From a phage, in sequence record NC_129764.1: a stretch of DNA of 51,099 nt; one strand, given 5' to 3'. The notes beneath the pieces are model-generated. The model was not told the DNA's origin. It saw only the letters and a program-made list of their open reading frames with translations, and made no database searches. Shown piece by piece: positions 5,823 through 33,575 of this stretch. The position numbers and the translations under genes are program-made. Numbering within the stretch: position 1 is the stretch's first letter; every line of letters starts with the position of its first letter.

Positions 5823-6269
5823 ATGAAACATTTGATTTGCATTGAAACGCCTAACGATGAATACACCCTGCACGGCATCGGAATGTTCAAAGGTCACTAC
5901 ATGACAGCAAGTATTTATGATGCGCGTCGCGGCGATGGCGATCTGATGATTACCTCAAAAGAGGTTAATCCGTACATCATGCAGAATCTTGGAAATAACG
6001 AATATATGGCCTACGGCTGCAACGCGGTGTATAAGCATATCAAGATCCGCAAGCGTGTCGTGCGAGCATTCAAGAAAATTGCAATGAAACACTGGAAGAT
6101 GAGCAAGAAAGATGCCGGACATTGGGCGCGTAACGTTGCAGATTCATACTTCTACCGTAACGGCGAGTCATGCTACTTCCTGATCGATGAAATGATGGAA
6201 AATTATAGCGGCACATTCTGCCAAAGTGATTTTGACGCCTGGGCTGACTACGAGGTCGATTGCTGGTAA
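5823..6269 (+). CDS. hypothetical protein (148 aa)
   Basis: ATG with RBS gagggaacactcATG. Confidence 0.55.
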   Translation: MKHLICIETPNDEYTLHGIGMFKGHYMTASIYDARRGDGDLMITSKEVNPYIMQNLGNNEYMAYGCNAVYKHIKIRKRVVRAFKKIAMKHWKMSKKDAGHWARNVADSYFYRNGESCYFLIDEMMENYSGTFCQSDFDAWADYEVDCW

Positions 6270-8190: not shown

Positions 8191-8420
8191 TGTTCGGTTT
8201 AAGCGAAGTGGAGTGGAATGTTGTAAAGCGTGCCGCGAAGGAATTGAATAAATTCGTTAGCGGAATGAAGAAAGAAGATCGCAAAAACGAAAAGATTATG
8301 ATTGATGTGATCTCAACTCATCACAAAAAGGTTGAGCTACTCATTGACCGATACAAGTTTGTATGGACCGCCGGATATATTGCAGGGCGCGTAGGTAATA
8401 AAGAGTGGGATTACGAATAA
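8190..8420 (+). CDS. hypothetical protein (76 aa)
   Basis: ORF, RBS gggagaggtaaataATG. Confidence 0.5.
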   Translation: MFGLSEVEWNVVKRAAKELNKFVSGMKKEDRKNEKIMIDVISTHHKKVELLIDRYKFVWTAGYIAGRVGNKEWDYE

Positions 8421-9116: not shown

Positions 9117-9344
9117 ATGACAGTTTTTTTATTGATTATCGCTGGTGTCATTATTTTTGGTGCTGGTTTGTTTGCTGGATTCGCGCTTGTTGCGGCTGCA
9201 ATTGCGATGGACGCGAAGGATAAAACTGGTGTATGGCTTACCTACTCACCAAAGAAGGACCAATGGGAAATGATTGGCGATCTTGCTCACTGCTACGCTA
9301 AAGCGCAGACCCACCCTAAAGGCATTAAACGACGATTATCGTGA
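9117..9344 (+). CDS. small membrane protein (75 aa)
   Basis: N-terminal hydrophobic helix LLIIAGVIIFGAGLFAGFALVAAAIA. Confidence 0.5.
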   Translation: MTVFLLIIAGVIIFGAGLFAGFALVAAAIAMDAKDKTGVWLTYSPKKDQWEMIGDLAHCYAKAQTHPKGIKRRLS

Positions 9345-9354
9345 TAAATACTAA

Positions 9355-9376
9355 CCCGCCTCGGCGGGTTTTTTTA
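9355..9376 (+). terminator. intrinsic terminator
   Basis: cccgcc-tcg-gcggg stem followed by T7 run. Confidence 0.7.
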
Positions 9377-9393
9377 TGCCTGCAATATGCTAA

Positions 9394-9413
9394 AATAGCA
9401 CTAAATGTTAAAC
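9394..9413 (+). promoter_or_regulatory. dyad motif variant AATAGCACTAAATGTTAAAC
   Basis: Sequence match upstream of packaging genes. Confidence 0.55.
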
Positions 9414-9428
9414 AAAGAGGATTGATTT

Positions 9429-9953
9429 ATGAGTGAACCTAAGAACGCTCCCGTAGTTCAGGGAGGTAATTTCAAAGAGCTATACAAGAAAAAGTTTGGC
9501 ACTGTTCTTGCGAAGAATCGGGCAATGACTCCTGAGCAATTATTCGATCTGTCAGTGAAGTATTTTGAATGGGCCGAAGATAATGCGATCAAGGCGTCAG
9601 AATCAGCCAGCTTCCAGGGTGGCGTTTACGAGTCACTTGTTCATAAGCCGCGCGTCTTCACTTGGACCGGATACCGACTATTCATAGGAGCAAGCGAGGC
9701 CGCAATCATTAAATGGAAACGAGAGGAAGAATACAGTGAGGTTATGGAGTTCGTGGAATCTGTAATCAACGAGCAAAAATTCCAGCTTGCTGCCAACGGT
9801 GTGATTAACGCTTCCTTTATCGGTAAGGATTTGGGAATCGATAAGCCAGCCTCAATCAATATCGAAAACTCGTCAGCTTCCGCATCGACAGTAGTCGCCA
9901 CTACTGAGGATGCAATGAAAGAGGCAGTAAACAGCATTCTTGATATGCTTTAA
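9429..9953 (+). CDS. putative terminase small subunit (174 aa)
   Basis: Position immediately upstream of the large terminase. Confidence 0.5.
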   Translation: MSEPKNAPVVQGGNFKELYKKKFGTVLAKNRAMTPEQLFDLSVKYFEWAEDNAIKASESASFQGGVYESLVHKPRVFTWTGYRLFIGASEAAIIKWKREEEYSEVMEFVESVINEQKFQLAANGVINASFIGKDLGIDKPASINIENSSASASTVVATTEDAMKEAVNSILDML

Positions 9954-11560: not shown

Positions 11561-11577
11561 TAAATGAGATATAATCA

Positions 11578-11604
11578 AGGCTGTCAATTGACGGCCTTTT
11601 TTTA
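11578..11604 (+). terminator. hairpin plus T-run between terminase and portal (attenuator-like)
   Basis: ggctgtcaattgacggcc near-palindrome followed by ttttttt. Confidence 0.4.
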
Positions 11605-11617
11605 TTGGAGGGAAAGT

Positions 11618-15255: not shown

Positions 15256-15270
15256 TTAGTGTTTAATATG

Positions 15271-15300
15271 GGGACTATCCTTTTGGGTAGTCCTTTTTTT
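15271..15300 (+). terminator. intrinsic terminator
   Basis: gggactatcc-tttt-gggtagtcc stem followed by T7. Confidence 0.6.
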
Positions 15301-15314
15301 ATGGAGAAAATACT

Positions 15315-16082: not shown

Positions 16083-16101
16083 CACAAAAATACTTTGACG
16101 C

Positions 16102-16120
16102 TTTAACAAAAAGTGCTATT
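16102..16120 (-). promoter_or_regulatory. dyad motif copy, reversed (plus strand TTTAACAAAAAGTGCTATT)
   Basis: Sequence match; lies between TTGACG and TATTAT upstream of the capsid gene. Confidence 0.55.
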
Positions 16121-16126
16121 ATTGAA

Positions 16127-16153
16127 GCCGTGAACATAATCACGGCTTTTTTT
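16127..16153 (+). terminator. intrinsic terminator or attenuator in capsid gene leader
   Basis: gccgtgaacataatcacggc stem followed by T7. Confidence 0.6.
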
Positions 16154-17134: not shown

Positions 17135-17141
17135 TATTATA

Positions 17142-17168
17142 GGGACTAACTTAGTTGGTCCCTTTTTT
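17142..17168 (+). terminator. intrinsic terminator after capsid gene
   Basis: gggactaac-tta-gttggtccc stem followed by T6. Confidence 0.7.
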
Positions 17169-17183
17169 ATTGGAGAAATCAAA

Positions 17184-17474: not shown

Positions 17475-17481
17475 TCAACAA

Positions 17482-17504
17482 GGCGCTTAATGCGCCTTTT
17501 TTTT
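17482..17504 (+). terminator. intrinsic terminator
   Basis: ggcgcttaatgcgcc stem followed by T8. Confidence 0.7.
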
Positions 17505-17517
17505 ATAGGTGGAAATT

Positions 17518-19124: not shown

Positions 19125-19793
19125 ATGCACTTACCAAATGGCGCGCAAATTTTCGTGGAAACCTCTCGCGGAGAAGAGATCGAGGCGACCGCTGTCACTA
19201 ACGCAAAAAATCCTGTTGCTACAGTTGCATCTAAGGGCGACTTGGCAAAAGGTGATTACGTTATTGTAACTCAGTCAACTTGGGCTAAGATGGTTAGTCG
19301 AGTACTTATTGTTACCGATGCTCAGGAAACAAGCATTACTCTTGCTGGAATTGACACTACTGATACTCTTGTTTTCCCGGCTGGCGGTACGATGAGCTTT
19401 GCAAAAGTTACTGGCTGGACTGAGATTCCTTGCGTACAGGAGATTGGTCAGGACGGCGGTGAGCAGCAGTACTACACTTATCAGTGTTTGTCAGACGATA
19501 AAGAGCAGCAGATCCCGACGTTTAAATCTGCAATCTCGCTAACTTACACCTTCGCGCACGAATTTGATAACCCGATCTACCCTATTCTGCGTAAGCTGGA
19601 TTCTTCTGGTCAGGTAACTGCGGTTCGTATGTATGTTCCAAAAGCGAACGAGATGCGCATGTGGGCTGGCATCTTGTCTTTTAACGACATTCCGTCTACG
19701 CAAGTAAACGAAATGGAAACGGTACAACTAGCCGTATCCCTGAAGGGTGATTTCACTTTCGTTTCATCCTCTCTGGCATCACCTGGTGCCTAA
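19125..19793 (+). CDS. major tail protein (222 aa)
   Basis: Position before chaperone and tape measure; followed by terminator. Confidence 0.6.
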   Translation: MHLPNGAQIFVETSRGEEIEATAVTNAKNPVATVASKGDLAKGDYVIVTQSTWAKMVSRVLIVTDAQETSITLAGIDTTDTLVFPAGGTMSFAKVTGWTEIPCVQEIGQDGGEQQYYTYQCLSDDKEQQIPTFKSAISLTYTFAHEFDNPIYPILRKLDSSGQVTAVRMYVPKANEMRMWAGILSFNDIPSTQVNEMETVQLAVSLKGDFTFVSSSLASPGA

Positions 19794-19805
19794 ATCATAT
19801 CCACA

Positions 19806-19826
19806 GGGGGCTTGCGCCCCCTTATT
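19806..19826 (+). terminator. intrinsic terminator
   Basis: gggggcttgcgccccc stem followed by ttatt. Confidence 0.6.
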
Positions 19827-19866
19827 CATTTCTGTAAAATCATCGTATCAACTTTTCACTATTCTC

Positions 19867-19886
19867 TTTTAACAAAAAGTGCTATT
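19867..19886 (-). promoter_or_regulatory. dyad motif copy, reversed (plus strand TTTTAACAAAAAGTGCTATT)
   Basis: Sequence match directly abutting the RBS aaccaatcaggag of the tail chaperone gene. Confidence 0.55.
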
Positions 19887-20224: not shown

Positions 20225-20541
20225 AAAGGGCGGTCTATCTGTTATATCAGAAGCCGCCAACAGAGGAACAATTGCGATCGGTTGGCTTAAGTCTTTCCGA
20301 CTATGAAGACGAGGAGCCTGAAACGATAATTGGCGACGCTGAAATGGTGAAGGCTTGGAATGTTTTTACATCAATGCTCACCCAGTGGAGAAGTTCAGGC
20401 GCTGGCGCTTACGGTCTTGATTATAATGTTTTGCCTATGTTGTTTAAAATCTATAAAATAGAAGATGAAGAACTGGCATTGCAGGACGTTAGGATCATGG
20501 AAGCGAAAGCGCTTGAAATGATTGCTAAGCAGAATAACTAA
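19907..20541 (+). CDS. tail assembly chaperone -1 frameshift fusion product (GT-like)
   Basis: The -1 frame is open from 20110 to 20541 and overlaps the G-like ORF; heptamer A_AAA_AAC at 20215-20221. Confidence 0.5.
20215..20221 (+). other. putative -1 programmed ribosomal frameshift slippery heptamer AAAAAAC
   Basis: X_XXY_YYZ pattern in zero frame just before the G-like stop; conserved strategy in tailed phages. Confidence 0.5.
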
Positions 20542-20542
20542 G

Positions 20543-20563
20543 CCGCCGTTTGGCGGTTTTTTT
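20543..20563 (+). terminator. weak intrinsic terminator
   Basis: ccgcc-gttt-ggcgg stem followed by T7. Confidence 0.5.
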
Positions 20564-20580
20564 GTATATAAGGGGGTTAT

Positions 20581-23454
20581 ATGGTTGATAAGGTAGCAGG
20601 TCTATCGCTTGACGTTGATGTGTCGACAGTACAGCGCGCCGTCAAGTCATTGAAAGAGTTTTCAAAAGCTAACGACCAAGCCGCTGACTCTATGGGGTCT
20701 TTAATCAATGAGGCCGAGGTTGCAAAACAGAAGGCTAAAGAACACGCTGAGCAACTTAAGCGCCAGCGCAAAGAGTACGAGGCTGTAGAAAAGGCAATCG
20801 ATCCTACAGTATCAAAAATGGAAAGGCTGAAGATTGCATCTCAGCAGCTTGATAAACTCTGGCAAAAGGGCATTGTTCCAGATGAAACATTTTTCCGTTT
20901 GGGTGAAATGCTGGACATGCAAAATGCAAAACTTGCTCGCAGCCGGGCCATGCTTACTGAAGAGGGGCAGGCAGCATTGCAGGAAGCGAAAGCAAAAGAG
21001 CAGGCAGCAGCGAAAAACAAAGCGTTCATGGATTCCCTTAACAGTCAGGTTAACGCTATTGGCAAAACTCACGCAGAGTTAATGGAACTGAAAGCGGCTC
21101 AGCTTGGGCTATCAAATGAAGCAGCGCCACTGATCGCAAAACTGAAAGAGCAGGGTCGAGCCATGAATGCCGCAGGTATTAGCGCGGGGCAATATAGGCA
21201 GGCAATGCGAATGCTTCCTGCACAGATTACCGACGTCGTTACATCTCTTGCGTCCGGTATGCCAGTTTGGATGGTTGCCATCCAGCAAGGCGGTCAAATT
21301 AAGGACTCGTTCGGAGGGATCGGGAATACGTTTAAGGTATTGCTCAGCTATATTAATCCGGTCACAGTTGGCGTTGGTGTTCTTGTCGGCTCTTTAGGAC
21401 TTCTTGCGAAAGCTGGTTATGACTCTTACAAGTCAATAACTGATATGCAGAAGGCTCTTGTTGAGACTGGAGGTTACGCAGGAGTCACGGCTGAAGAACT
21501 TGATTCTGTTGCTAAAAAGGTGGCTCAGACGAGCAACTCAACAATTTCAAGCATTCGTGAGATTGTTACTGAACTTGCCAGTACGGGGAAGTATACGCGA
21601 GAGCAGATTCAGAACATCACAAAGGCTACCGCTGAGTGGTCGACAGCAACCGGAAAATCAGCAAGTAAAATCATCGCTGAGTTCGATAAAATCGCAAGCG
21701 ATCCTGTAAAGGGTCTGGCTAAACTTAACGAGCAATACAACTTTTTAGAAAAAGGTCAACTGACATATATCGATACGCTAAGCCGTACTAAGGGTGAAAC
21801 GGAGGCAGTGTCTGAAGCAACAAAATTATTCGCCGAAGTTATGGAGAAGCGAATGAAGTCGATCGCAGACAATGCCACTCCTCTTGAAAAAATGTGGAAC
21901 GATATTAAGCAGTGGGCCTCTGATGCGTGGGGGTGGGTTGGGGATCATACTCTCGGAGCATTAAACCTGATTATTGACGTAGTTCAGGGTACGGTAATTC
22001 AGGTAAAAATGATTCTGGCGAAGGGCGATGAGTACATCTCAAACTTTATAGCCTCTGCAATTAAGGCTACGCAGTCTCTGCCTGGAATGAGTGATTTCGG
22101 CGCTGATGTACTAAAGGAACAGGAGAATATTGTAAAAAGTTCTCGTGACAACTACGATCAGTTAGCTTCAGAGCTTGATGCCATCAACGCCCGTGTTGAA
22201 AAAGGTGAGATGGGATACATTGAAGCAATGAAGCAGCGCCGTACTCTTGAAAAGCAGTATAGCCAGGAAACTAAGGACGCTATCAAGGAAGAAGCTGAAG
22301 AGATCGAAAAGCGAAACCGTGAACGAAATAAGCAGTCGAAAATTTTACGCTCACCTACAGAGCAATTCGATAAGGAGTTAATTTCACTCAAAGCACAGCT
22401 TAAGGTTTTGCAGGAGCACAAGGAGATAGGGCAAAAACTATCAGCACAGAGAAAGGCGCTGTTTACGACTGAGGCTACAATTGCCGTTCTTAGAGAAGCT
22501 AGTTCTAAGCGTCAGTTATCTGCGGAAGAAAAAGCACTACTTGCAAACCAGGAGAAAGTTTTAGAGCTTGCGAAACAAAAGGCCGAGATTGGCGATCAGA
22601 TTGTTAAGCAGCAGCAGTTGAACGCTCTTACTGATAAATCACTGAAGTTTGTCAATGATTTGACGGCAGCTACAGAGCAGCTAAACGCGTCTCGCGGGAT
22701 GAGCACCCGAGAAATGGAGCGACAAGCGGAGTTGGCTAAGATCACCACTGACTATATTAATGCGGGTGGCAGCGAAGGGGATGAAAAACTCCAGAACATG
22801 ATCAAGGCGCAAAATGATTACTATGCTGCGGAAGATGCCAAGCGTGCTGACTGGTTGGCAGGTGCTGAAAGCGCATTTGCAGATTACGGCGATTCCGCAA
22901 TGGATATGTATGGTAACGTATATGATATAGCGTCAAGTTCACTTAACGGAATGAGTGATATGATGACCCAATTCCTGACTACAGGTAAGGCAAACTTTGA
23001 GGACTTTGCGAAAAACATCATTAGCATGATTATAAAGATGATTGCTCAGATGGTAATCTTCAATACGATCTCAGGCATGATGGGCGGTAAGACGTGGAGC
23101 TTTGCTGGAGTGGCGTCGTCTGGTGCTTCTGTGGCATCACAGGCAACCCCTACGCCTGCCGCCTCCGGTTTTAGGTCTTTATCATCGGGCGTTGCTGTTA
23201 CCTCGCTTGCTGCCGCGGCTGGTAGTGTGGCAACATCTGGATTTAACGCATCTAAAGCAGCGCCGAAGGCAGTAAACCAATCAGCAGGTGGGACGGTCGT
23301 TGACGTTAGGGGCATGGAGGTTAAAGTTGACAATGGTTCAGATCCGAGAGGAATTTCTCAGGGCGTAGAGATGATGTTCAAAAAAATGATTCGCGAATCT
23401 TGTTCTCAGGGCGGTGAGGTTTACAATTACATTCAGGAAAAAACAGGAGGCTAA
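20581..23454 (+). CDS. tail tape measure protein (957 aa)
   Basis: Very long alpha-helical, coiled-coil-rich ORF with Gly/Ser/Ala-rich C-terminal region. Confidence 0.9.
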
Positions 23455-23456
23455 TA

Positions 23457-23810
23457 ATGGCGGCACTTGATACTTTTAGTTGGTGTACGCAGGTTCAAGG
23501 GGGCGGCGGCTCCCTCACCACTACCAACAATGACAGATCCATACAGTTTGGCAACGGCTACATGCAGCTTGCATCTTCTGGATTTAACACCACGAGACGC
23601 GAGTATTCGGTTGTCTACGCTGGTGATGATTTCATGGCTGTTTACAACTTCTGTGATTCTCATCGAATTAAACCTTTCGCATGGACACCTCCAGACGGGA
23701 AGATCGGGGTATGGGTAGTTAAGCCAAATAGTTTGGGAGCGAAACCTGTATCACGGGACGTGATGGAAATTAACGTAACGTTTATGGAGCAGTTTACATC
23801 TATGCAATAG
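23457..23810 (+). CDS. minor tail protein (M-like, 117 aa)
   Basis: Synteny after tape measure. Confidence 0.65.
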   Translation: MAALDTFSWCTQVQGGGGSLTTTNNDRSIQFGNGYMQLASSGFNTTRREYSVVYAGDDFMAVYNFCDSHRIKPFAWTPPDGKIGVWVVKPNSLGAKPVSRDVMEINVTFMEQFTSMQ

Positions 23811-23826
23811 CACTTAGTGACAAAAG
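23806..23826 (+). promoter_or_regulatory. dyad motif variant AATAGCACTTAGTGACAAAAG
   Basis: Partial match; stop TAG embedded. Confidence 0.4.
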
Positions 23827-23848
23827 CCCGCCTTGCGCGGGTTTTTTT
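23826..23848 (+). terminator. intrinsic terminator (cccgccttgcgcggg family)
   Basis: Perfect stem followed by T7; followed by TAGAATGG. Confidence 0.7.
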
Positions 23849-23889
23849 GTAGCTGTAGAATGGTTGCAACTAAACAAGAGGAAAAGAAA

Positions 23890-24672
23890 ATGAGCGGAAA
23901 CAAAAAACTTTATGATGAAGAAAGCGGAAAGAGCCTGTTTCATAACTGCCTTCAGTCACTGTATCCAGGGGAGATAATCACCCTTATTGAAGTTGATGGT
24001 AGCAAGTTCGGCGCTCAGGTGTATCGATTCCACGGAGAGAACATCCAGTACACTCCAGAGGAAATCATGCAGGCCCAGCAAACTGGAACGCTGCCGCCGA
24101 AAGAAATTACATTCCGTGGCGAGCAATACGGAGCGCGACCGTTCGGTATATCCGGGATCTCGTTCGACAGTTCCGGTAAGGCCACAAAACCACAGTTGAC
24201 GGTGGCGAACATTGATAGCCGAGTATCTGCAATGATTCGATCATATAACGGATTGATGCAAGCTAAGGTGACAATCTGGATCACTCAAAAGGACTTAATT
24301 CAACCTGACGGCTCAATAGCTGACGGCGCTTACCGCAAACTGGTATACTATATCGAACGCCCGAGCTATGTCGATAAGAGCGTCGCCCGATTCGATCTCA
24401 CGTCGCCGTATGATATGGATGGCATCATGATCCCGTCTCGACTAACGCAAAGCGTTTGCTATTGGGCGCAGCGGGGATGGTATAAAACCGGGAAAGGCTG
24501 CGGATACAACGGGCAAAACGGTTATTTTGACAAAGACAACAACAAGGTAGGCGATCCATCCCTAGACTTCTGCCCTGGAACGGTAACTGCGTGCCGACTT
24601 AGATTTGGTGCAAATAATGAATTGGATTTTGGCGGTTGTGCTGTCGCTTCACTACAGAGGAAAAATCAATGA
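23890..24672 (+). CDS. minor tail protein (L-like, 260 aa)
   Basis: Synteny; C-terminal Cys cluster (CYWAQ...GKGCGY...DFCPG...TACR). Confidence 0.7.
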   Translation: MSGNKKLYDEESGKSLFHNCLQSLYPGEIITLIEVDGSKFGAQVYRFHGENIQYTPEEIMQAQQTGTLPPKEITFRGEQYGARPFGISGISFDSSGKATKPQLTVANIDSRVSAMIRSYNGLMQAKVTIWITQKDLIQPDGSIADGAYRKLVYYIERPSYVDKSVARFDLTSPYDMDGIMIPSRLTQSVCYWAQRGWYKTGKGCGYNGQNGYFDKDNNKVGDPSLDFCPGTVTACRLRFGANNELDFGGCAVASLQRKNQ

Positions 24673-25403
24673 TTAATGCAAAAATTAAACTTGAAATCAT
24701 GACTCACGCTCAAGAAGAATACCCCCGAGAATGCTGCGGGGTAGTTACCCAAAAAGGACGCGTGCAAAAATACCATCGCATTGATAACGTGCATCGCGAT
24801 CCTGAGAATCATTTCATGATGGACGCAGTGCAATACGCATGTATTGAGGATGACGCAGACTCAACCACGATTGCGATCGTTCACAGCCACACAGGAGACG
24901 GGGCTACAACTCTTCCCAGTGCTCACGACACATGCATGTGCAACGAGATGGAAGTTACCTGGATTATTGTTAGCGTACCGGAAGGAGATATGCGATTTGT
25001 TAAGCCTGAGAAATTACCTCTGATTGGTCGACCGTGGTCGTTAGGCTCATTTGACTGTTACGGTCTAGTAATGGCGTGGCACAAAGAGCACGGCGTAGAG
25101 TTACGCGATCGCCGATTGAATTTTGAATGGTGGAAACCTGAGTACGGAATTAATCTCTATCAGGATTATTACAAGCAAGATGGATTCGTTGAGATTCCAG
25201 ATCAGAACAACCCATCATTCGGGGATATGGTAATCATGCAGATAGGGCAAAATGTTCCGGTATGGAACCACGCAGGGATTTACCTGGGTGATAATCAGAT
25301 CTTGCATCACGCCTTTGGCAAACTTTCGAGACGTGATATCTATTCCGGCTGGTATCAGGATCATACTGTTTTAATTGTTCGCCATAAGGATCTTAAATTA
25401 TGA
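24669..25403 (+). CDS. tail assembly protein (K-like; MPN/JAB plus NlpC/P60-like, 244 aa)
   Basis: ECCGVV and HSHT segments N-terminally; synteny; ATGA overlap start. Confidence 0.75.
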   Translation: MINAKIKLEIMTHAQEEYPRECCGVVTQKGRVQKYHRIDNVHRDPENHFMMDAVQYACIEDDADSTTIAIVHSHTGDGATTLPSAHDTCMCNEMEVTWIIVSVPEGDMRFVKPEKLPLIGRPWSLGSFDCYGLVMAWHKEHGVELRDRRLNFEWWKPEYGINLYQDYYKQDGFVEIPDQNNPSFGDMVIMQIGQNVPVWNHAGIYLGDNQILHHAFGKLSRRDIYSGWYQDHTVLIVRHKDLKL

Positions 25404-25999: not shown

Positions 26000-26005
26000 A
26001 ACCAA

Positions 26006-26028
26006 CCCGCCTTGCGCGGGTTTTTTTT
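26006..26028 (+). terminator. intrinsic terminator (cccgccttgcgcggg family)
   Basis: Same stem as 23827; T8 run; followed by TATAATGG. Confidence 0.7.
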
Positions 26029-26076
26029 CGCCTGTATAATGGGTTAACCGATAAACAGCACAAAAAGGTAAACATC

Positions 26077-29000
26077 ATGATTCAAAAAGTGATAAGTGGT
26101 TCGAAAGGCGGCTCTCCTAAGCCTCACAATCCAGTTGAAATGGAAGATAACCTGATCTCAATCAACAAAATAAAGATTCTTCTGGCAGTATCTGATGGCG
26201 AGATTGACGAAACATTCAACCTCAAGCAGCTGATGTTTAACTCAGTCCCGGTGCAAAACGAGGATGGCTCTTTCAACTTTGAAGGCGTAACGGCAGAGTT
26301 CAGGTCGGGCACGCAAACTCAGGAATATATCAAGGGGATGGAAGATAGCTCTAGTGAGGTAACTGTAAACCGTGAGGTTACTACAGATAACCCATACACG
26401 ATCTCAGTAACCAACAAAACGCTTTCGGCAATCCGTATCAAAATGTTTATGCCTCGCGGCGTACGAATTGAGAGCAACGGAGACAAAAACGGCGTTCGAG
26501 TTGAGTACGAAGTGCAGCAAGCGGTTGATGGCGGTTCGTTTGAAAAGGTTCTATCTGACGTAATCGAAGGCAAAACAATGTCAGGTTATGATCGAAGCCG
26601 ACGCATAAACCTTCCGAGCTTCAACAATCAGGTGATATTCAGAGTCGTTCGTAAAACTCCAGACTCTAGCGACTCGAACGTTGTTGACGCGATTCAGGTA
26701 AAGAGCTATGCCGAGGTGATTGATGCAAAATTCCGTTACCCTCTGACTGGTCTTCTTTTCGTCGAGTTCGATTCGAAGATGTTCCCAAACCAGTTACCTA
26801 CGATCTCAATTCGTAAGCGATGGAAGATTGTAAACGTTCCTTCGAACTACGATCCAGAATCACGAACTTATAACGGGAATTGGGATGGAACTTTTAAGAA
26901 GGCGTGGACGAATAATCCGGCTTGGGTGCTTTATGACCTGATGATTAATCAGCGTTATGGTCTGGATCAGAAGGAGCTTGGAATATCTGTCGATAAATGG
27001 GCGCTATATGAGGCGGCGCAATATTGCGACCAGATGGTCCCTGACGGCAAAGGCGGCACAGAGCCTCGCTACCTTTGCGACGTGATAATTCAATCTCAGA
27101 CTGATGCGTACAAGGTGATTCGAGATATTTGCTCAATCTTCCGTGGAATGAGTTTTTGGAATGGTGAAAGCATTTCGGTAATCATCGACAGGCCACGTGA
27201 GCCTGCGTACATCTTCACTAACGACAACGTTGTTAACGGTGACTTCTCCTATACTTTCGCAAGCGAGAAAAGTATGTACACGACGTGCAACGTGATGTTT
27301 GATGATGAACAAAACATGTATCAGCAGGACGTTGAGCCAGTATTCGATCGAGAAGCCACTCTACGGTTCGGGAATAACGTAACAAGCATTACAGCGATCG
27401 GTTGCACACGTCGAAGTGAAGCTAACCGTCGCGGACGATGGATTCTGAAAACAAACCTTCGCAGCACTACGGTAAACTTTGCTACCGGGCTTGAGGGTAT
27501 GATTCCGACAATTGGAGATGTTGTAGCGATAGCTGATAACTTCTGGTCAAGTAACTTGACTATGAACCTGTCAGGGCGTTTGCTCGAAGTGTCTGGAAGT
27601 CAGATTTTCCTGCCGTTCCGCGTTGATGCTCGCGCAGGTGACTTTATTATCGTAAATAAGCCCGATGGCAAGCCCGTGAAGCGCACAATCTCAAGTGTTA
27701 GTGCGGATGGTAAGACTATAGAGGTTAACATCGGCTTTGGCTTTCCTGTGAAGCCTAACACGGTATTCGCAATCGACCGTACCGACATTGCGTTGCAGCA
27801 GTACATCGTGACCAAAATCGACAAGGGTGATGATGATGAGGAATTTACCTACAAAATCACGGCAGTGGAGTACGATCCTAACAAGTACGATGAGATTGAT
27901 TACGGAGTTAACATCGACGACCGACCGACGAGCATCGTTGAGCCAGATCAGATCCCTAAACCGGAAAACGTGAAAGTGTCCTCAGAGTCGAGAATCGTTC
28001 AGGGGATGAGCGTAGAAACGATGATTGTTAGCTGGGATAAAGTGCCTTACGCAGTTTTCTATGACGTCCAGTGGCGAAAGGATAACGGCAACTGGCAAAA
28101 TGTACCGCAGACGGCAAATAAAGAGGTATACGTTGAAGGCATTTACGCTGGAAACTATCAGGTTCGCGTGCGATCCGTCGCTGGTTCAGGCACGACTTCA
28201 GGTTGGTCAAATATCGTAGCTGCGACGCTGACGGGTAAACAAGGTGAGCCGGGACGACCGATTAACCTTACAGCTACGGATGATGTTGTTTTTGGTATCC
28301 GTACAAAATGGGGGTTCTCTGATGGTTCTGGAGATACGGCCTACACGGAGTTGCAGCAGTCACCGGATGGAACAGTGGATAGCGCAAGTTTGCTTTCTTT
28401 GATTCCGTATCCGCAGCATGAGTATTATCACTCACCGATGCCTGGAGGGAATATTGTGTGGTATCGGGTAAGGACGGTTGACAGGATCGGTAACGTATCT
28501 CAGTGGACTGATTTTGTCAGAGGCATGGCATCAACAAACGTTGACGATATCATCGGAGAGATTTCTGTCGATATCGAAAACTCGCCGGGTTACGAGTGGC
28601 TTGTTGATAACGCAACAGACAACGCGGCGCAGAACGCAGCTAACGCAGAGGCAGCAATAGAAAACGCGCTCGCCAATGACAAAGATGCGATCTACATGAA
28701 GAAGGAGAACGGAAAACGAAAAGCTGAGTACACGAAATCACTTAAACTTATTGCTGATGAGACGCAGGCGCGAGTGACGTCGATCGAGCAGTTGAAGGCA
28801 AGTTTTGACGATCAGATTAGCGCAAGCAATAGCGAGTTGCGTGAAGTTATAGCGACCGAGACTGGAGCGATATCGCGTGAAATTGACCAACTCAAGGCTC
28901 AGATTGGTGACGATATTCAGGCGAGCTTGACAGATATCCGAGAGGCTATCGCAAACGAGACTGAGGCCAGAACTCAGGCCGACTTAACGTTAAACGCGAG

Positions 29001-29529
29001 GCTTGGAAATAACGAGGCGGCACTTGCTCAAAAACTTGACTCTTGGAGTAATGCGAGTTCTACCGGGGCGATGTACGGCGTTAAGCTGGGGCTGAAATAC
29101 AACGGGCAGGAATACAGCGCAGGAATGGCTATGTCCCTGATTGGTTCCGGCGCGGCTGTTAAGGCTCAGATTCTTTTTGAGGCGTCACGATTTGCAATCA
29201 TGACCGGGATGAATGGAAAGACACAATACCCGTTTGTTGTTGAGAATGGTCAGGTTATTTTAAGTAGCGCGATCATTAAAAACGGATTCATCACTAATGC
29301 TATGATTGGAAACGTTATTCAATCGAATAACTTCTCTTCAGGTAGTGCTGGATGGATGGTTAACAAGAATGGATCGGCTGAGTTTAATGCGGTTACTGTC
29401 AGAGGCAAACTTTACGCAAGTAACGGTGAGTTTGCATTCAACGGAACGGGTAATACCGTTCAGATTAACAATAACGGCATCACGGTAAACTTACCTGGTG
29501 GCGGGAAAGTTGTAGTGGGGAGGTGGTAA
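26077..29529 (+). CDS. tail tip / host specificity protein (J-like, 1150 aa)
   Basis: Size and position after the I-like gene. Confidence 0.85.
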   Translation: MIQKVISGSKGGSPKPHNPVEMEDNLISINKIKILLAVSDGEIDETFNLKQLMFNSVPVQNEDGSFNFEGVTAEFRSGTQTQEYIKGMEDSSSEVTVNREVTTDNPYTISVTNKTLSAIRIKMFMPRGVRIESNGDKNGVRVEYEVQQAVDGGSFEKVLSDVIEGKTMSGYDRSRRINLPSFNNQVIFRVVRKTPDSSDSNVVDAIQVKSYAEVIDAKFRYPLTGLLFVEFDSKMFPNQLPTISIRKRWKIVNVPSNYDPESRTYNGNWDGTFKKAWTNNPAWVLYDLMINQRYGLDQKELGISVDKWALYEAAQYCDQMVPDGKGGTEPRYLCDVIIQSQTDAYKVIRDICSIFRGMSFWNGESISVIIDRPREPAYIFTNDNVVNGDFSYTFASEKSMYTTCNVMFDDEQNMYQQDVEPVFDREATLRFGNNVTSITAIGCTRRSEANRRGRWILKTNLRSTTVNFATGLEGMIPTIGDVVAIADNFWSSNLTMNLSGRLLEVSGSQIFLPFRVDARAGDFIIVNKPDGKPVKRTISSVSADGKTIEVNIGFGFPVKPNTVFAIDRTDIALQQYIVTKIDKGDDDEEFTYKITAVEYDPNKYDEIDYGVNIDDRPTSIVEPDQIPKPENVKVSSESRIVQGMSVETMIVSWDKVPYAVFYDVQWRKDNGNWQNVPQTANKEVYVEGIYAGNYQVRVRSVAGSGTTSGWSNIVAATLTGKQGEPGRPINLTATDDVVFGIRTKWGFSDGSGDTAYTELQQSPDGTVDSASLLSLIPYPQHEYYHSPMPGGNIVWYRVRTVDRIGNVSQWTDFVRGMASTNVDDIIGEISVDIENSPGYEWLVDNATDNAAQNAANAEAAIENALANDKDAIYMKKENGKRKAEYTKSLKLIADETQARVTSIEQLKASFDDQISASNSELREVIATETGAISREIDQLKAQIGDDIQASLTDIREAIANETEARTQADLTLNARLGNNEAALAQKLDSWSNASSTGAMYGVKLGLKYNGQEYSAGMAMSLIGSGAAVKAQILFEASRFAIMTGMNGKTQYPFVVENGQVILSSAIIKNGFITNAMIGNVIQSNNFSSGSAGWMVNKNGSAEFNAVTVRGKLYASNGEFAFNGTGNTVQINNNGITVNLPGGGKVVVGRW

Positions 29530-29536
29530 AATATAA

Positions 29537-29558
29537 GGGGCCGAGTGGCCCCTTTTTT
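29537..29558. terminator. bidirectional intrinsic terminator
   Basis: ggggccgagtggcccc stem with T-run on plus and A-run upstream; sits between convergent genes. Confidence 0.7.
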
Positions 29559-33538: not shown

Positions 33539-33540
33539 TA

Positions 33541-33575
33541 AGAAAGCCCCGCATTGCGGGGCTTTCTTTTATTCT
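33541..33575. terminator. bidirectional intrinsic terminator
   Basis: aaagccccgcattgcggggcttt stem with flanking T-run. Confidence 0.7.

What the first reader, a model, noticed from the sequence alone, without database searches (positions are those of the whole stretch)
23826..23870. Triplicated terminator-promoter unit (cccgcc-loop-gcggg, T-run, TAnAATGG)
The same stem (cccgccttgcgcggg) with a T-run occurs at 23827-23848 and 26006-26028, and a close variant (cccgcctcggcggg) at 9355-9376. In each case a -10-like TAGAATGG, TATAATGG or AATATG follows within about 10 nt. These duplicated units sit at boundaries within the tail gene block and before the packaging genes. They may partition transcription, terminating upstream messages and re-initiating, to set stoichiometry between tape measure, tip proteins and the J-like protein.
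Basis: seen in the sequence. Interest (0 to 1): 0.4.

Follow-up and report, generated by a model that had tools for sequence, protein, structure and literature searches.

The report
Terminator hairpins fused to promoters
In this T1-like coliphage, four gaps between late genes carry a transcription stop signal fused to a host-type start signal; the stop signals are already annotated in phage T1, so the finding is real but largely ordinary.

Summary
The window is a T1-like phage (Drexlerviridae, Tunavirus). The 20-mer CCCGCCTTGCGCGGGTTTTT occurs exactly at 23827 and 26006, with a variant at 9355. Each copy is a GC hairpin plus a T-run, followed by a -10-like hexamer.

In about 100 distinct orthologous sequences from relatives, three things hold:
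- The stems change by compensatory and G.U substitutions in the + sense.
- The T-run persists.
- The near-invariant bases are a TTG in the hairpin loop, the T-run and TAnAAT.

The TTG lies exactly 17 nt upstream of TAnAAT, although T-run and linker lengths vary. The -35 therefore sits inside the terminator loop and the T-tract serves as promoter spacer. The unit before terS lacks the loop TTG and has a conserved extended -10 (TGnTAAAAT).

This idea is already published for T1 as "transcriptons". The three terminators are annotated in T1's GenBank record; the promoters after them are not. Nothing has been tested experimentally. Interest is low to moderate.

The parts
9353..9375 (+). Unit C terminator. 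Hairpin AACCCGCCTCGGCGGGTT plus T7, 9 nt after the stop codon of the last gene of the left early block (9117-9344).
   Evidence: -13.0 kcal/mol, z -3.65. The ortholog is annotated as a rho-independent terminator in T1 (AY216660 8322-8344). It is conserved in 17 relatives.
9383..9396 (+). Unit C promoter elements. A weak CAATAT (9383-9388) sits at the position homologous to the -10 of A and B. It overlaps the extended -10 TGcTAAAAT (9388-9396). Predicted start is near 9403. There is no loop TTG here.
   Evidence: TGnTAAAAT is conserved in the 15 close relatives and in L093 and L094; L097 has TGtTATAAT. TLS has TATAAT at the equivalent place.
9396..9412 (+). Copy of the Drexlerviridae direct repeat (TAGCACTAAATGTTAAA), lying over the predicted start and 5' UTR of terS (ATG at 9429).
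   Evidence: It has no -10 at the 22-nt distance seen at the early copies.
19805..19840 (+). Hairpin AGGGGGCTTGCGCCCCCT (19805-19822) after the major tail protein gene. -35 TTGCGC at 19812-19817 in the loop and 3' arm, a 17-nt spacer, and -10 TAAAAT at 19835-19840. The T-run is degenerate in this lineage (TTATTCATTT). Predicted start is near 19847.
   Evidence: (-14.6 kcal/mol). Relatives keep hairpin + T5-T9 + TAnAAT with TTG at 17 nt in 24 of 28 unique sequences.
23822..23848 (+). Unit A terminator. Core hairpin CCCGC-CTTGC-GCGGG at 23827-23841, extended by A-U and G.U pairs from 23822, plus T7 at 23842-23848. It lies 12 nt after the gpM stop codon (23810).
   Evidence: -13.7 kcal/mol. The ortholog is annotated as a terminator in T1 (22793-22816), SA12KD and TLS T46. 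Covariation is shown.
23833..23861 (+). Unit A promoter. -35 TTGCGC at 23833-23838 (hairpin loop and 3' arm), a 17-nt spacer made of the 3' arm, the T-run and GTAGCTG, and -10 TAGAAT at 23856-23861. Predicted start is near 23868. Shine-Dalgarno at 23877-23882; gpL ATG at 23890.
   Evidence: In orthologs from 80 loci, 20 of 36 unique sequences have TTG at 17 nt, and the large Klebsiella-type group has TTTACG at 17 nt. A -10 is present in all lineages except L046 and L051.
26004..26028 (+). Unit B terminator. Hairpin AACCCGCCTTGCGCGGGTT plus T8 (26021-26028), 5 nt after the gpI stop codon (25999).
   Evidence: -11.0 kcal/mol. The ortholog is annotated as a terminator in T1 (24972-24994), SA12KD and TLS T49. 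Covariation is shown.
26012..26040 (+). Unit B promoter. -35 TTGCGC at 26012-26017, a 17-nt spacer, and consensus -10 TATAAT at 26035-26040. Predicted start is near 26047. gpJ ATG at 26077.
   Evidence: TAnAAT is present in every lineage that has no insertion at this site. TTG lies at 17 nt in 29 of 43 unique sequences.
26056..26072 (+). Degenerate copy of the direct repeat (CAGCACAAAAAGGTAAA) in the predicted 5' UTR of gpJ. It includes the weak Shine-Dalgarno AAGG.
   Evidence: Relatives have ATAGCACAAAAGGTTAAA. It is listed as DR8 after T49 in TLS.

Best explanation
Each unit is a composite of an intrinsic (Rho-independent) terminator and a sigma-70 promoter that share the same bases.

On RNA made from upstream, the GC hairpin plus U-tract releases at least part of the polymerases. 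This step is inferred.

On DNA, the TTG in the hairpin loop acts as the -35. The 3' arm, the T-tract and a short linker form the 17-bp spacer. TAnAAT is the -10. Host RNA polymerase therefore restarts about 20 nt past the release point: near 23868 for gpL-K-I, near 26047 for gpJ and near 19847 for the tape-measure chaperones, tape measure protein and gpM. These start positions are inferred.

The unit before terS marks the boundary between early and late genes. It uses an extended -10 (TGnTAAAAT, start near 9403) instead of a loop -35.

The terminator shields each promoter from incoming polymerases and uncouples the output of neighbouring blocks. Together with the promoter-less attenuator hairpins, this cuts the 20-kb late region into separately dosed transcription units.

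Shown here: the sequence anatomy, conservation of the structure and conservation of the promoter geometry. Not shown: termination, initiation, their strengths or their timing.
For: Identity of the window:
- It is a Tunavirus, 96.7% identical to vB_EcoS_SA12KD.
- The gene order is terS...MTP | G/GT-TMP-M | L-K-I | J.

Terminator half:
- Stable hairpins with 7-8 T at A, B and C.
- All 120 unique orthologous sequences fold at -9.5 kcal/mol or better.
- Wobble pairs are G.U on the + strand. Examples: -14.0 vs -4.7 and -20.5 vs -13.1 kcal/mol for sense vs antisense.
- RNAalifold finds both-sides-changed pairs at 5 of 6 positions.
- The same sites are annotated as terminators in T1, SA12KD, SA32RD and TLS.

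Promoter half:
- TTGCGC-N17-TANAAT occurs 3 times against 0.05 expected.
- Among 107 unique A, B and D orthologs anchored on the -10, TTG starts at the 17-nt register in 73. No neighbouring register (14-19 nt) has more than 3.
- T-run length (3-9) and linker length (3-10) vary, yet 3' arm + T-run + linker always sums to 17.
- In a 34-sequence cross-lineage alignment, nearly all the near-invariant columns are TTG, the T-run and TAnAAT.
- Many lineages add TGn before the -10.
- Site C keeps TGnTAAAAT in all close relatives.

Context:
- Most of the other late hairpins abut the Shine-Dalgarno sequence and have no -10.
- Literature: T1 late-region 'transcriptons', and no phage RNA polymerase or sigma factor in TLS.
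Against: - There are no transcript data for any T1-like phage in the library searched.
- The -35 matches the consensus at only 3 of 6 positions (TTGCGC), and the consensus scan did not call these promoters.
- The G directly before the -10 (cTG-TAnAAT) is one base off the canonical extended -10 in this lineage.
- The Klebsiella-type group lacks a clear TTG at site B (TAGCCT).
- Two lineages (L046, L051) have the site A hairpin with no -10, so the promoter is dispensable there.
- Unit D has no real T-run in this window.
- Careful curators of TLS accepted only three sigma-70 promoters genome-wide and would not affirm transcriptons.
- The sequences compared are related, so the counts are not independent events.
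Confidence: 0.72

Rival explanations
1. They are terminators or attenuators only. On this view the TAnAAT and loop TTG are conserved for another reason, such as AT-rich UTR composition, a ribosome standby site or a processing site. All late genes would then be read from far-upstream promoters by read-through.
For: - The terminator half is the only part annotated in T1, SA12KD, SA32RD and TLS.
- The consensus scan does not call these promoters.
- Five other late hairpins clearly work without a following promoter, so read-through must occur in this operon anyway.
- L046 and L051 lack the -10 at site A.
Against: - The 17-nt TTG-to-TAnAAT spacing is fixed while its components vary in length. That is the signature of a sigma-70 promoter, not of a UTR element.
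- Nearly all the near-invariant columns are the canonical -35 and -10 bases and the T-run.
- TGn extended -10 motifs appear independently in several lineages.
- Only these four hairpins are followed by long gaps of 41-66 nt before the start codon.
Confidence: 0.13
2. They are promoters whose inverted repeat is a DNA operator for a dimeric regulator overlapping the -35. On this view they are not RNA terminators.
For: The inverted repeat is centred on the -35, a classic repressor position. The phage has an unexplained repeat system that suggests unknown DNA-binding regulators.
Against: - The stem sequence is not conserved, only the pairing.
- Wobble pairs are G.U in the sense RNA and would be A-C mismatches in the antisense strand.
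- A T-run of 5-9 follows the stem in most lineages.
- The hairpin starts 5-12 nt after a stop codon.
Confidence: 0.04
3. The units are mainly conserved linker cassettes for homologous recombination, working like PeSL elements. They would allow exchange of tail modules between phages or between sites, with regulation as a by-product.
For: - A and B are identical over 22 nt in the Tunavirus clade, whereas their orthologs differ from each other in other genera such as TLS.
- The linker GTAGCTG is shared by site A of Tunavirus and site B of L037.
- Homing-endonuclease-type insertions sit exactly at these gaps in L039/L040 (HNH_3, E 2e-24) and L049.
Against: - At 200-nt resolution, identity profiles against 14 close relatives show breakpoints scattered inside genes, with no clear clustering at 23.8 or 26.0 kb.
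- The units flank conserved core genes, not variable ORFans.
- The shared repeat of 22-40 nt is short.
Confidence: 0.08

Closest known systems
Phage T1 late-region 'transcriptons' (Roberts, Martin & Kropinski 2004, as summarised in PMC11447400) and the terminators annotated in T1 GenBank AY216660
   Same: These are the orthologous elements in the type phage. Rho-independent terminators are annotated before terS, gpL and gpJ. The published idea is that the late region is a series of modules flanked by terminators and containing RpoD promoters.
   Different: The promoters directly after these hairpins are not annotated in T1, SA12KD, SA32RD or TLS. The TLS authors say they cannot affirm transcriptons. 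I did not find the -35-in-loop geometry or the fourth unit in the accessible literature. The 2004 paper itself could not be read.
PeSL (promoter-early stem-loop) composite promoter/terminator cassettes of T4-type phages (PMC2839356, PMC4122927)
   Same: Both are small, repeated, intergenic cassettes that combine a sigma-70-type promoter with a terminator stem-loop. In both the proposed role is to isolate neighbouring genes transcriptionally.
   Different: In PeSLs the stem-loop lies between -35 and -10 or over the -10. They carry an AT-rich upstream region, flank ORFans in hyperplastic early regions and demonstrably recombine. Here the stem-loop encloses the -35, a T-tract forms the spacer, the units flank core late genes, and recombination is not shown. 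The early DR promoters of this phage, where a hairpin surrounds the -10, resemble PeSLs more closely.
Lambda late operon (single PR' transcript with Q antitermination); from general knowledge
   Same: The same order of tail genes (M, L, K, I, J homologs) is expressed late by host RNA polymerase (annotation).
   Different: Lambda reads the whole block from one promoter and sets ratios mainly by translation. This phage interrupts the block with hairpin/T-run sites and internal promoters. No Q-like system was identified or tested here.
Drexlerviridae 21-nt direct repeat aaATAGCACnnnTTGnTAAAA (PMC11447400)
   Same: Units B and C each carry a copy just downstream of their -10. TLS DR8 is the site B copy.
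   Different: At about 16 early copies a -10 lies exactly 22 nt after TTGnTA. The late copies have none, and two of them are inverted. The repeat is a neighbour of the terminator-promoter unit, not part of it.

Membership tests
Intrinsic (Rho-independent) terminator | Stable GC-rich stem-loop in the sense RNA | tested here: met
   -13.7 (A), -11.0 (B), -13.0 (C) and -14.6 (D) kcal/mol, with z-scores -2.6 to -3.7. All 120 unique orthologs fold at -9.5 kcal/mol or better.
Intrinsic (Rho-independent) terminator | U-tract directly 3' of the stem | tested here: met
   T7 at A, T8 at B and T7 at C. This is NOT met for unit D in this window (TTATTCATTT), although D orthologs in other genera have T5-T9.
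Intrinsic (Rho-independent) terminator | Structure kept by compensatory or wobble changes on the transcribed strand | tested here: met
   Five of 6 consensus pairs show both-sides changes. G.U pairs make the sense hairpin up to 9 kcal/mol more stable than the antisense one. The largest reverse difference is 2.6 kcal/mol.
Intrinsic (Rho-independent) terminator | Transcripts actually end in the U-tract | not testable with these tools
   No transcript 3'-end data were found for any T1-like phage.
Sigma-70 promoter | -10 hexamer with A at position 2 and T at position 6 | tested here: met
   TAGAAT (A), TATAAT (B), TAAAAT (D) and TAAAAT (C). The hexamer is conserved in nearly all lineages.
Sigma-70 promoter | -35 TTGnnn at 17 +/- 1 bp from the -10 | tested here: met
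   A, B and D have TTGCGC at exactly 17. Among 107 unique orthologs, 73 have TTG at 17. Unit C does not meet this; it has a TGn extended -10 instead.
Sigma-70 promoter | Primary transcripts start about 7 nt after the -10 | not testable with these tools
   No 5'-end mapping is available. Predicted starts are near 23868, 26047, 19847 and 9403.
T1 'transcripton' boundary elements | Orthology to the terminators at the terS, gpL and gpJ boundaries of T1 | tested here: met
   T1 loci L013 and L086 carry near-identical units. They are annotated as terminators at 8322-8344, 22793-22816 and 24972-24994 of AY216660.
T4-type PeSL | [quoted passage not shown] | tested here: not met
   Here the stem-loop encloses the -35 and lies upstream of the spacer.
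T4-type PeSL | Flanks variable ORFans and mediates recombination or indels | tested here: inconclusive
   The units flank conserved core genes. Breakpoints are not visibly clustered at them. However, HNH-type insertions occur at these gaps in three loci.
Drexlerviridae 21-nt direct repeat | Match to ATAGCACnnnTTGnTAAA with a -10 placed 22 nt downstream | tested here: not met
   The sequence matches at 9396 (0 mismatches) and 26056 (2 mismatches). Neither copy has a -10 at 22 nt, unlike 16 early copies.

The most novel reading that the evidence does not exclude
The terminator-promoter fusion may be more than compaction. It may be one half of a family-wide regulatory code in Drexlerviridae.

The same 17-nt repeat (ATAGCAC-N5-GTTAAA) sits at about -42 of roughly 16 early promoters that have only a -10 or an extended -10. 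In the late region it lies over the transcription start or 5' UTR of the terS and gpJ promoters. It is inverted just before the major capsid and tape-measure-chaperone genes.

One unknown DNA-binding factor, from the phage or the host, could therefore switch early promoters one way and these late units the other way. That would give temporal control to a phage that has no RNA polymerase or sigma factor of its own.

A second, independent possibility concerns the geometry. Release of RNA polymerase inside the spacer of the next promoter may favour its direct re-use (recycling) at that promoter.
Probability: 0.15. Interest if true: 0.6.

Novelty: already known. Interest (0 to 1): 0.27.

Why it matters
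T1-like phages are common laboratory contaminants and phage-therapy candidates, and they rely entirely on the host RNA polymerase. How they time and dose late genes is still unresolved. The most recent curated analysis, of TLS, could not affirm internal late promoters.

The comparative evidence here shows four late promoters whose -35 lies inside a terminator loop, conserved across the family. This gives exact coordinates and point mutations for testing.

It also offers very compact, insulated terminator/promoter parts of about 40 bp for engineering.

As a discovery it adds detail to an idea published for T1 in 2004. It is not a new kind of element.

Tried and rejected
1. Rfam scan of the whole window found no family at gathering score.

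2. Generic promoter/terminator scan. Promoter-like hits were at chance level (35 vs 33, 39 vs 33, 18 vs 20). The scan missed these promoters because TTGCGC matches only 3 of 6 positions, and it missed terminator A on the + strand. It was used only as a map of the hairpins.

3. I first read the ATAGCAC...TTGnTAAA repeat as the -35 of the early promoters. I rejected that: the -10 lies 22 nt, not 17 nt, after TTGnTA in 16 of 19 copies.

4. I tested whether the late-region copies of the repeat are promoters in either orientation. There is no -10 with a final T at the right distance.

5. I tested whether recombination breakpoints cluster at the units, using 200-nt identity profiles against 14 relatives. 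The result was inconclusive, with mosaicism everywhere.

6. The original T1 genome paper is not held.

7. Searches for transcriptomes of T1-like phages found none.

8. The promoter annotated near site A in SA32RD lies upstream of the hairpin, inside the end of gpM. It is not the element discussed here.

Full report
**What the window is.** The 6-kb stretch around the finding is 96.7% identical to Escherichia phage vB_EcoS_SA12KD. It is 91-93% identical to many Shigella and Escherichia phages of the genus Tunavirus, family Drexlerviridae. Window coordinates equal SA12KD coordinates plus 9428. Annotation of SA12KD and of T1 itself gives the late gene order on the + strand: terS 9429, terL, portal, head genes, major capsid 16175, connectors, major tail protein 19125-19793, tape-measure chaperones 19907, tape measure 20581-23454, gpM 23457-23810, gpL 23890, gpK, gpI to 25999, and gpJ 26077-29529.

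**Observation.**
- CCCGCCTTGCGCGGGTTTTT occurs exactly at 23827 and 26006 and nowhere else, even with three mismatches allowed. None of 100 shuffles gave a match.
- The variant at 9355 differs in the loop.
- As RNA the three hairpins fold at -13.7, -11.0 and -13.0 kcal/mol and are followed by 7-8 U.
- TAGAAT (23856-61) and TATAAT (26035-40) follow 7 and 6 nt after the T-run.

**Two corrections.**
- The late operon has about a dozen hairpin/T-run sites. Most of them (11577, 15270, 17141, 17480, 20540) are followed within 8-13 nt by the Shine-Dalgarno sequence and start codon, so they have no room for a promoter.
- There is a fourth unit of the same build at 19805-19840, after the major tail protein gene. 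The pattern TTGCGC-N17-TANAAT matches exactly three times in 51 kb (19812, 23833, 26012). All three are on the + strand in late intergenic gaps, against 0.05 expected.

**Anatomy.** In units A, B and D the TTG of a -35-like hexamer lies in the hairpin loop. The 3' arm, the T-run and a short linker make up a 17-nt spacer, and TAnAAT follows. The terminator and the promoter therefore overlap physically.

**Comparative evidence, promoter half.** I fetched 80 loci with gpL relatives at 65-98% protein identity, including T1 (L013) and TLS (L024). I also fetched 17 loci with terS relatives and 53 with major-tail-protein relatives, and extracted the orthologous gaps.
- Nearly every lineage has a GC hairpin, a T-run and a -10 hexamer (TATAAT, TACAAT, TAGAAT, TAAAAT or TATGAT).
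- I anchored 107 unique A, B and D sequences on the -10. TTG starts at the 17-nt-spacer register in 73 of them, and no register from 14 to 19 nt other than 17 has more than 3.
- T-runs vary from 3 to 9 and linkers from 3 to 10, but 3' arm + T-run + linker always sums to 17.
- In a 34-sequence alignment across sites and lineages, nearly all the near-invariant columns are TTG, the T-run and T-A-n-A-A-T.
- Several lineages carry TGn directly upstream of the -10.

**Comparative evidence, terminator half.**
- Stem sequences differ between lineages (CCCGC/GCGGG, GCCGC/GCGGC, CCCCGC/GCGGGG, GCGCCC/GGGTGC, GGGGC/GCCCC, GGGGAAGC/GCTTCCCC and others), yet all 120 unique sequences fold at -9.5 kcal/mol or better.
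- Where wobble pairs occur they are G.U in the + sense. This makes the sense hairpin up to 9 kcal/mol more stable than the antisense one. The reverse advantage never exceeds 2.6 kcal/mol.
- RNAalifold finds both-sides-changed pairs at 5 of 6 positions.
- This points to an RNA hairpin on late-sense transcripts, not to a DNA operator.

**Unit C.** In the Tunavirus relatives the loop has no TTG. The hexamer at the position homologous to the -10 of A and B is weak (CAATAT). An extended -10, TGnTAAAAT (9388-9396 in the window), is conserved in the 15 close relatives and in L093 and L094; L097 has TGtTATAAT. TLS has TATAAT at the equivalent place. Unit C sits between the last gene of the left early block and terS, so it marks the early/late boundary.

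**Exceptions.**
- L046 and L051 have the site A hairpin followed directly by the Shine-Dalgarno sequence, with no -10.
- The hairpin at site B is destroyed in L012.
- L039 and L040 carry a 563-nt insertion at site B with a reverse-strand HNH_3 endonuclease gene. L049 carries a 526-nt insertion at site A.
- The Klebsiella-type group has TTTACG at site A but only TAGCCT at site B.

**Mechanism (inferred).** Transcripts from upstream end in the U-tract. Host sigma-70 RNA polymerase initiates about 20 nt further on, near 23868, 26047, 19847 and 9403. The terminator protects the promoter from incoming polymerases and uncouples neighbouring blocks. No transcript data could be found.

**Comparison with what is known.**
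[quoted passage not shown] It lists the orthologous terminators T28, T46 and T49.
- The T1 GenBank record annotates terminators at all three orthologous sites. SA12KD and SA32RD annotate the orthologs of A and B.
- The promoters directly after the hairpins are not annotated in any of these records. The TLS authors accepted only three sigma-70 promoters and would not affirm transcriptons.
- The nearest named analogue is the PeSL composite promoter/terminator cassette of T4-type phages. There, however, the stem-loop lies between -35 and -10 or over the -10, and the cassettes flank variable ORFans and recombine. Units A-D fail that placement test.
- A 200-nt identity scan against 14 relatives shows mosaicism everywhere and no clear clustering of breakpoints at the units.

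**Verdict.** It is orthologous to annotated T1 elements, and the concept was published in 2004. The new detail is the conserved -35-in-loop geometry, the fourth unit and the extended -10 at the terS unit. Interest is low to moderate.

Noticed in passing
window 1346, 2086, 3107, 3668, 4373, 5750, 6270, 7565, 35717, 37258, 39768, 40791 (+ strand); 44542, 46704, 47204, 47723, 48839, 49461, 49925 (- strand): The pattern TAGCAC-N5-G(T/C)TAAA occurs 30 times against 4.2 expected. It is the 21-nt direct repeat reported for TLS with unknown function. At the early copies, which follow gene direction, a -10 hexamer lies exactly 22 nt (not 17) after TTGnTA in 16 of 19 cases. The -10 is often preceded by TGn and usually sits in the loop or 3' arm of a small hairpin. 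The repeat is therefore a fixed upstream site centred near -42 of promoters that lack a -35, a PeSL-like layout. The TAG of the repeat is often the stop codon of the upstream gene.
   Followed up: partly
window 9396-9412 (+), 26056-26072 (+), 16102-16118 (-), 19868-19884 (-): Four copies of the same repeat lie in the late region without a -10 at 22 nt. Two are forward, over the predicted start or 5' UTR of terS and gpJ. Two are inverted, just before the ribosome-binding sites of the major capsid and tape-measure-chaperone genes. The inverted copy before the chaperone gene and the forward copy before gpJ are conserved in distant genera. Independence from orientation suggests a DNA-binding factor rather than an RNA element.
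   Followed up: partly
window 16095-16149: This is the best consensus promoter in the late region: TTGACG-16-TGcTATTAT, matching 10 of 12 positions plus TG. It ends 2 nt before the hairpin and T-run at 16124-16149, upstream of the major capsid gene. The predicted start near 16129 falls inside the 5' arm. Transcripts from this promoter would therefore lack the full hairpin and escape termination, whereas read-through transcripts would not. This is the reverse arrangement to units A-D.
   Followed up: no
window 11577-11605, 15270-15302, 17141-17170, 17480-17506, 20540-20566: These are hairpin/T-run sites between essential late genes, directly abutting the next Shine-Dalgarno sequence, with no promoter. 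The downstream genes (portal, connectors, tape measure) must be expressed by read-through. These sites must therefore be leaky attenuators, or antiterminated.
   Followed up: no
L039 and L040 5477-6040; L049 3474-4000: Relatives carry insertions exactly at the site B and site A gaps. One is a reverse-strand HNH_3 endonuclease gene (Pfam E 2e-24). The other is a Cys-rich 163-aa ORF with no Pfam hit. The terminator-promoter gaps appear to be landing sites for homing-type genes.
   Followed up: partly
L012 about 6117-6194 (site B ortholog): The 3' arm of the hairpin is replaced (CCCGCTCCGCATTCATTTTTTTT) while the -10 and the repeat are intact. This is either a natural terminator-less variant or an assembly error.
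   Followed up: no
window 23849-23855 versus L037 site B: The linker GTAGCTG between the T-run and the -10 is shared by site A of the Tunavirus clade and site B of a distant lineage (L037). In addition, A and B are identical only within Tunavirus. This hints at sequence exchange between units.
   Followed up: no
window 29535-29554 and 33540-33568: These are strong two-way hairpins with T-runs on both strands. They lie at the convergent end of the late operon (after gpJ) and after the recombination genes, and are annotated as bidirectional terminators in SA12KD.
   Followed up: no
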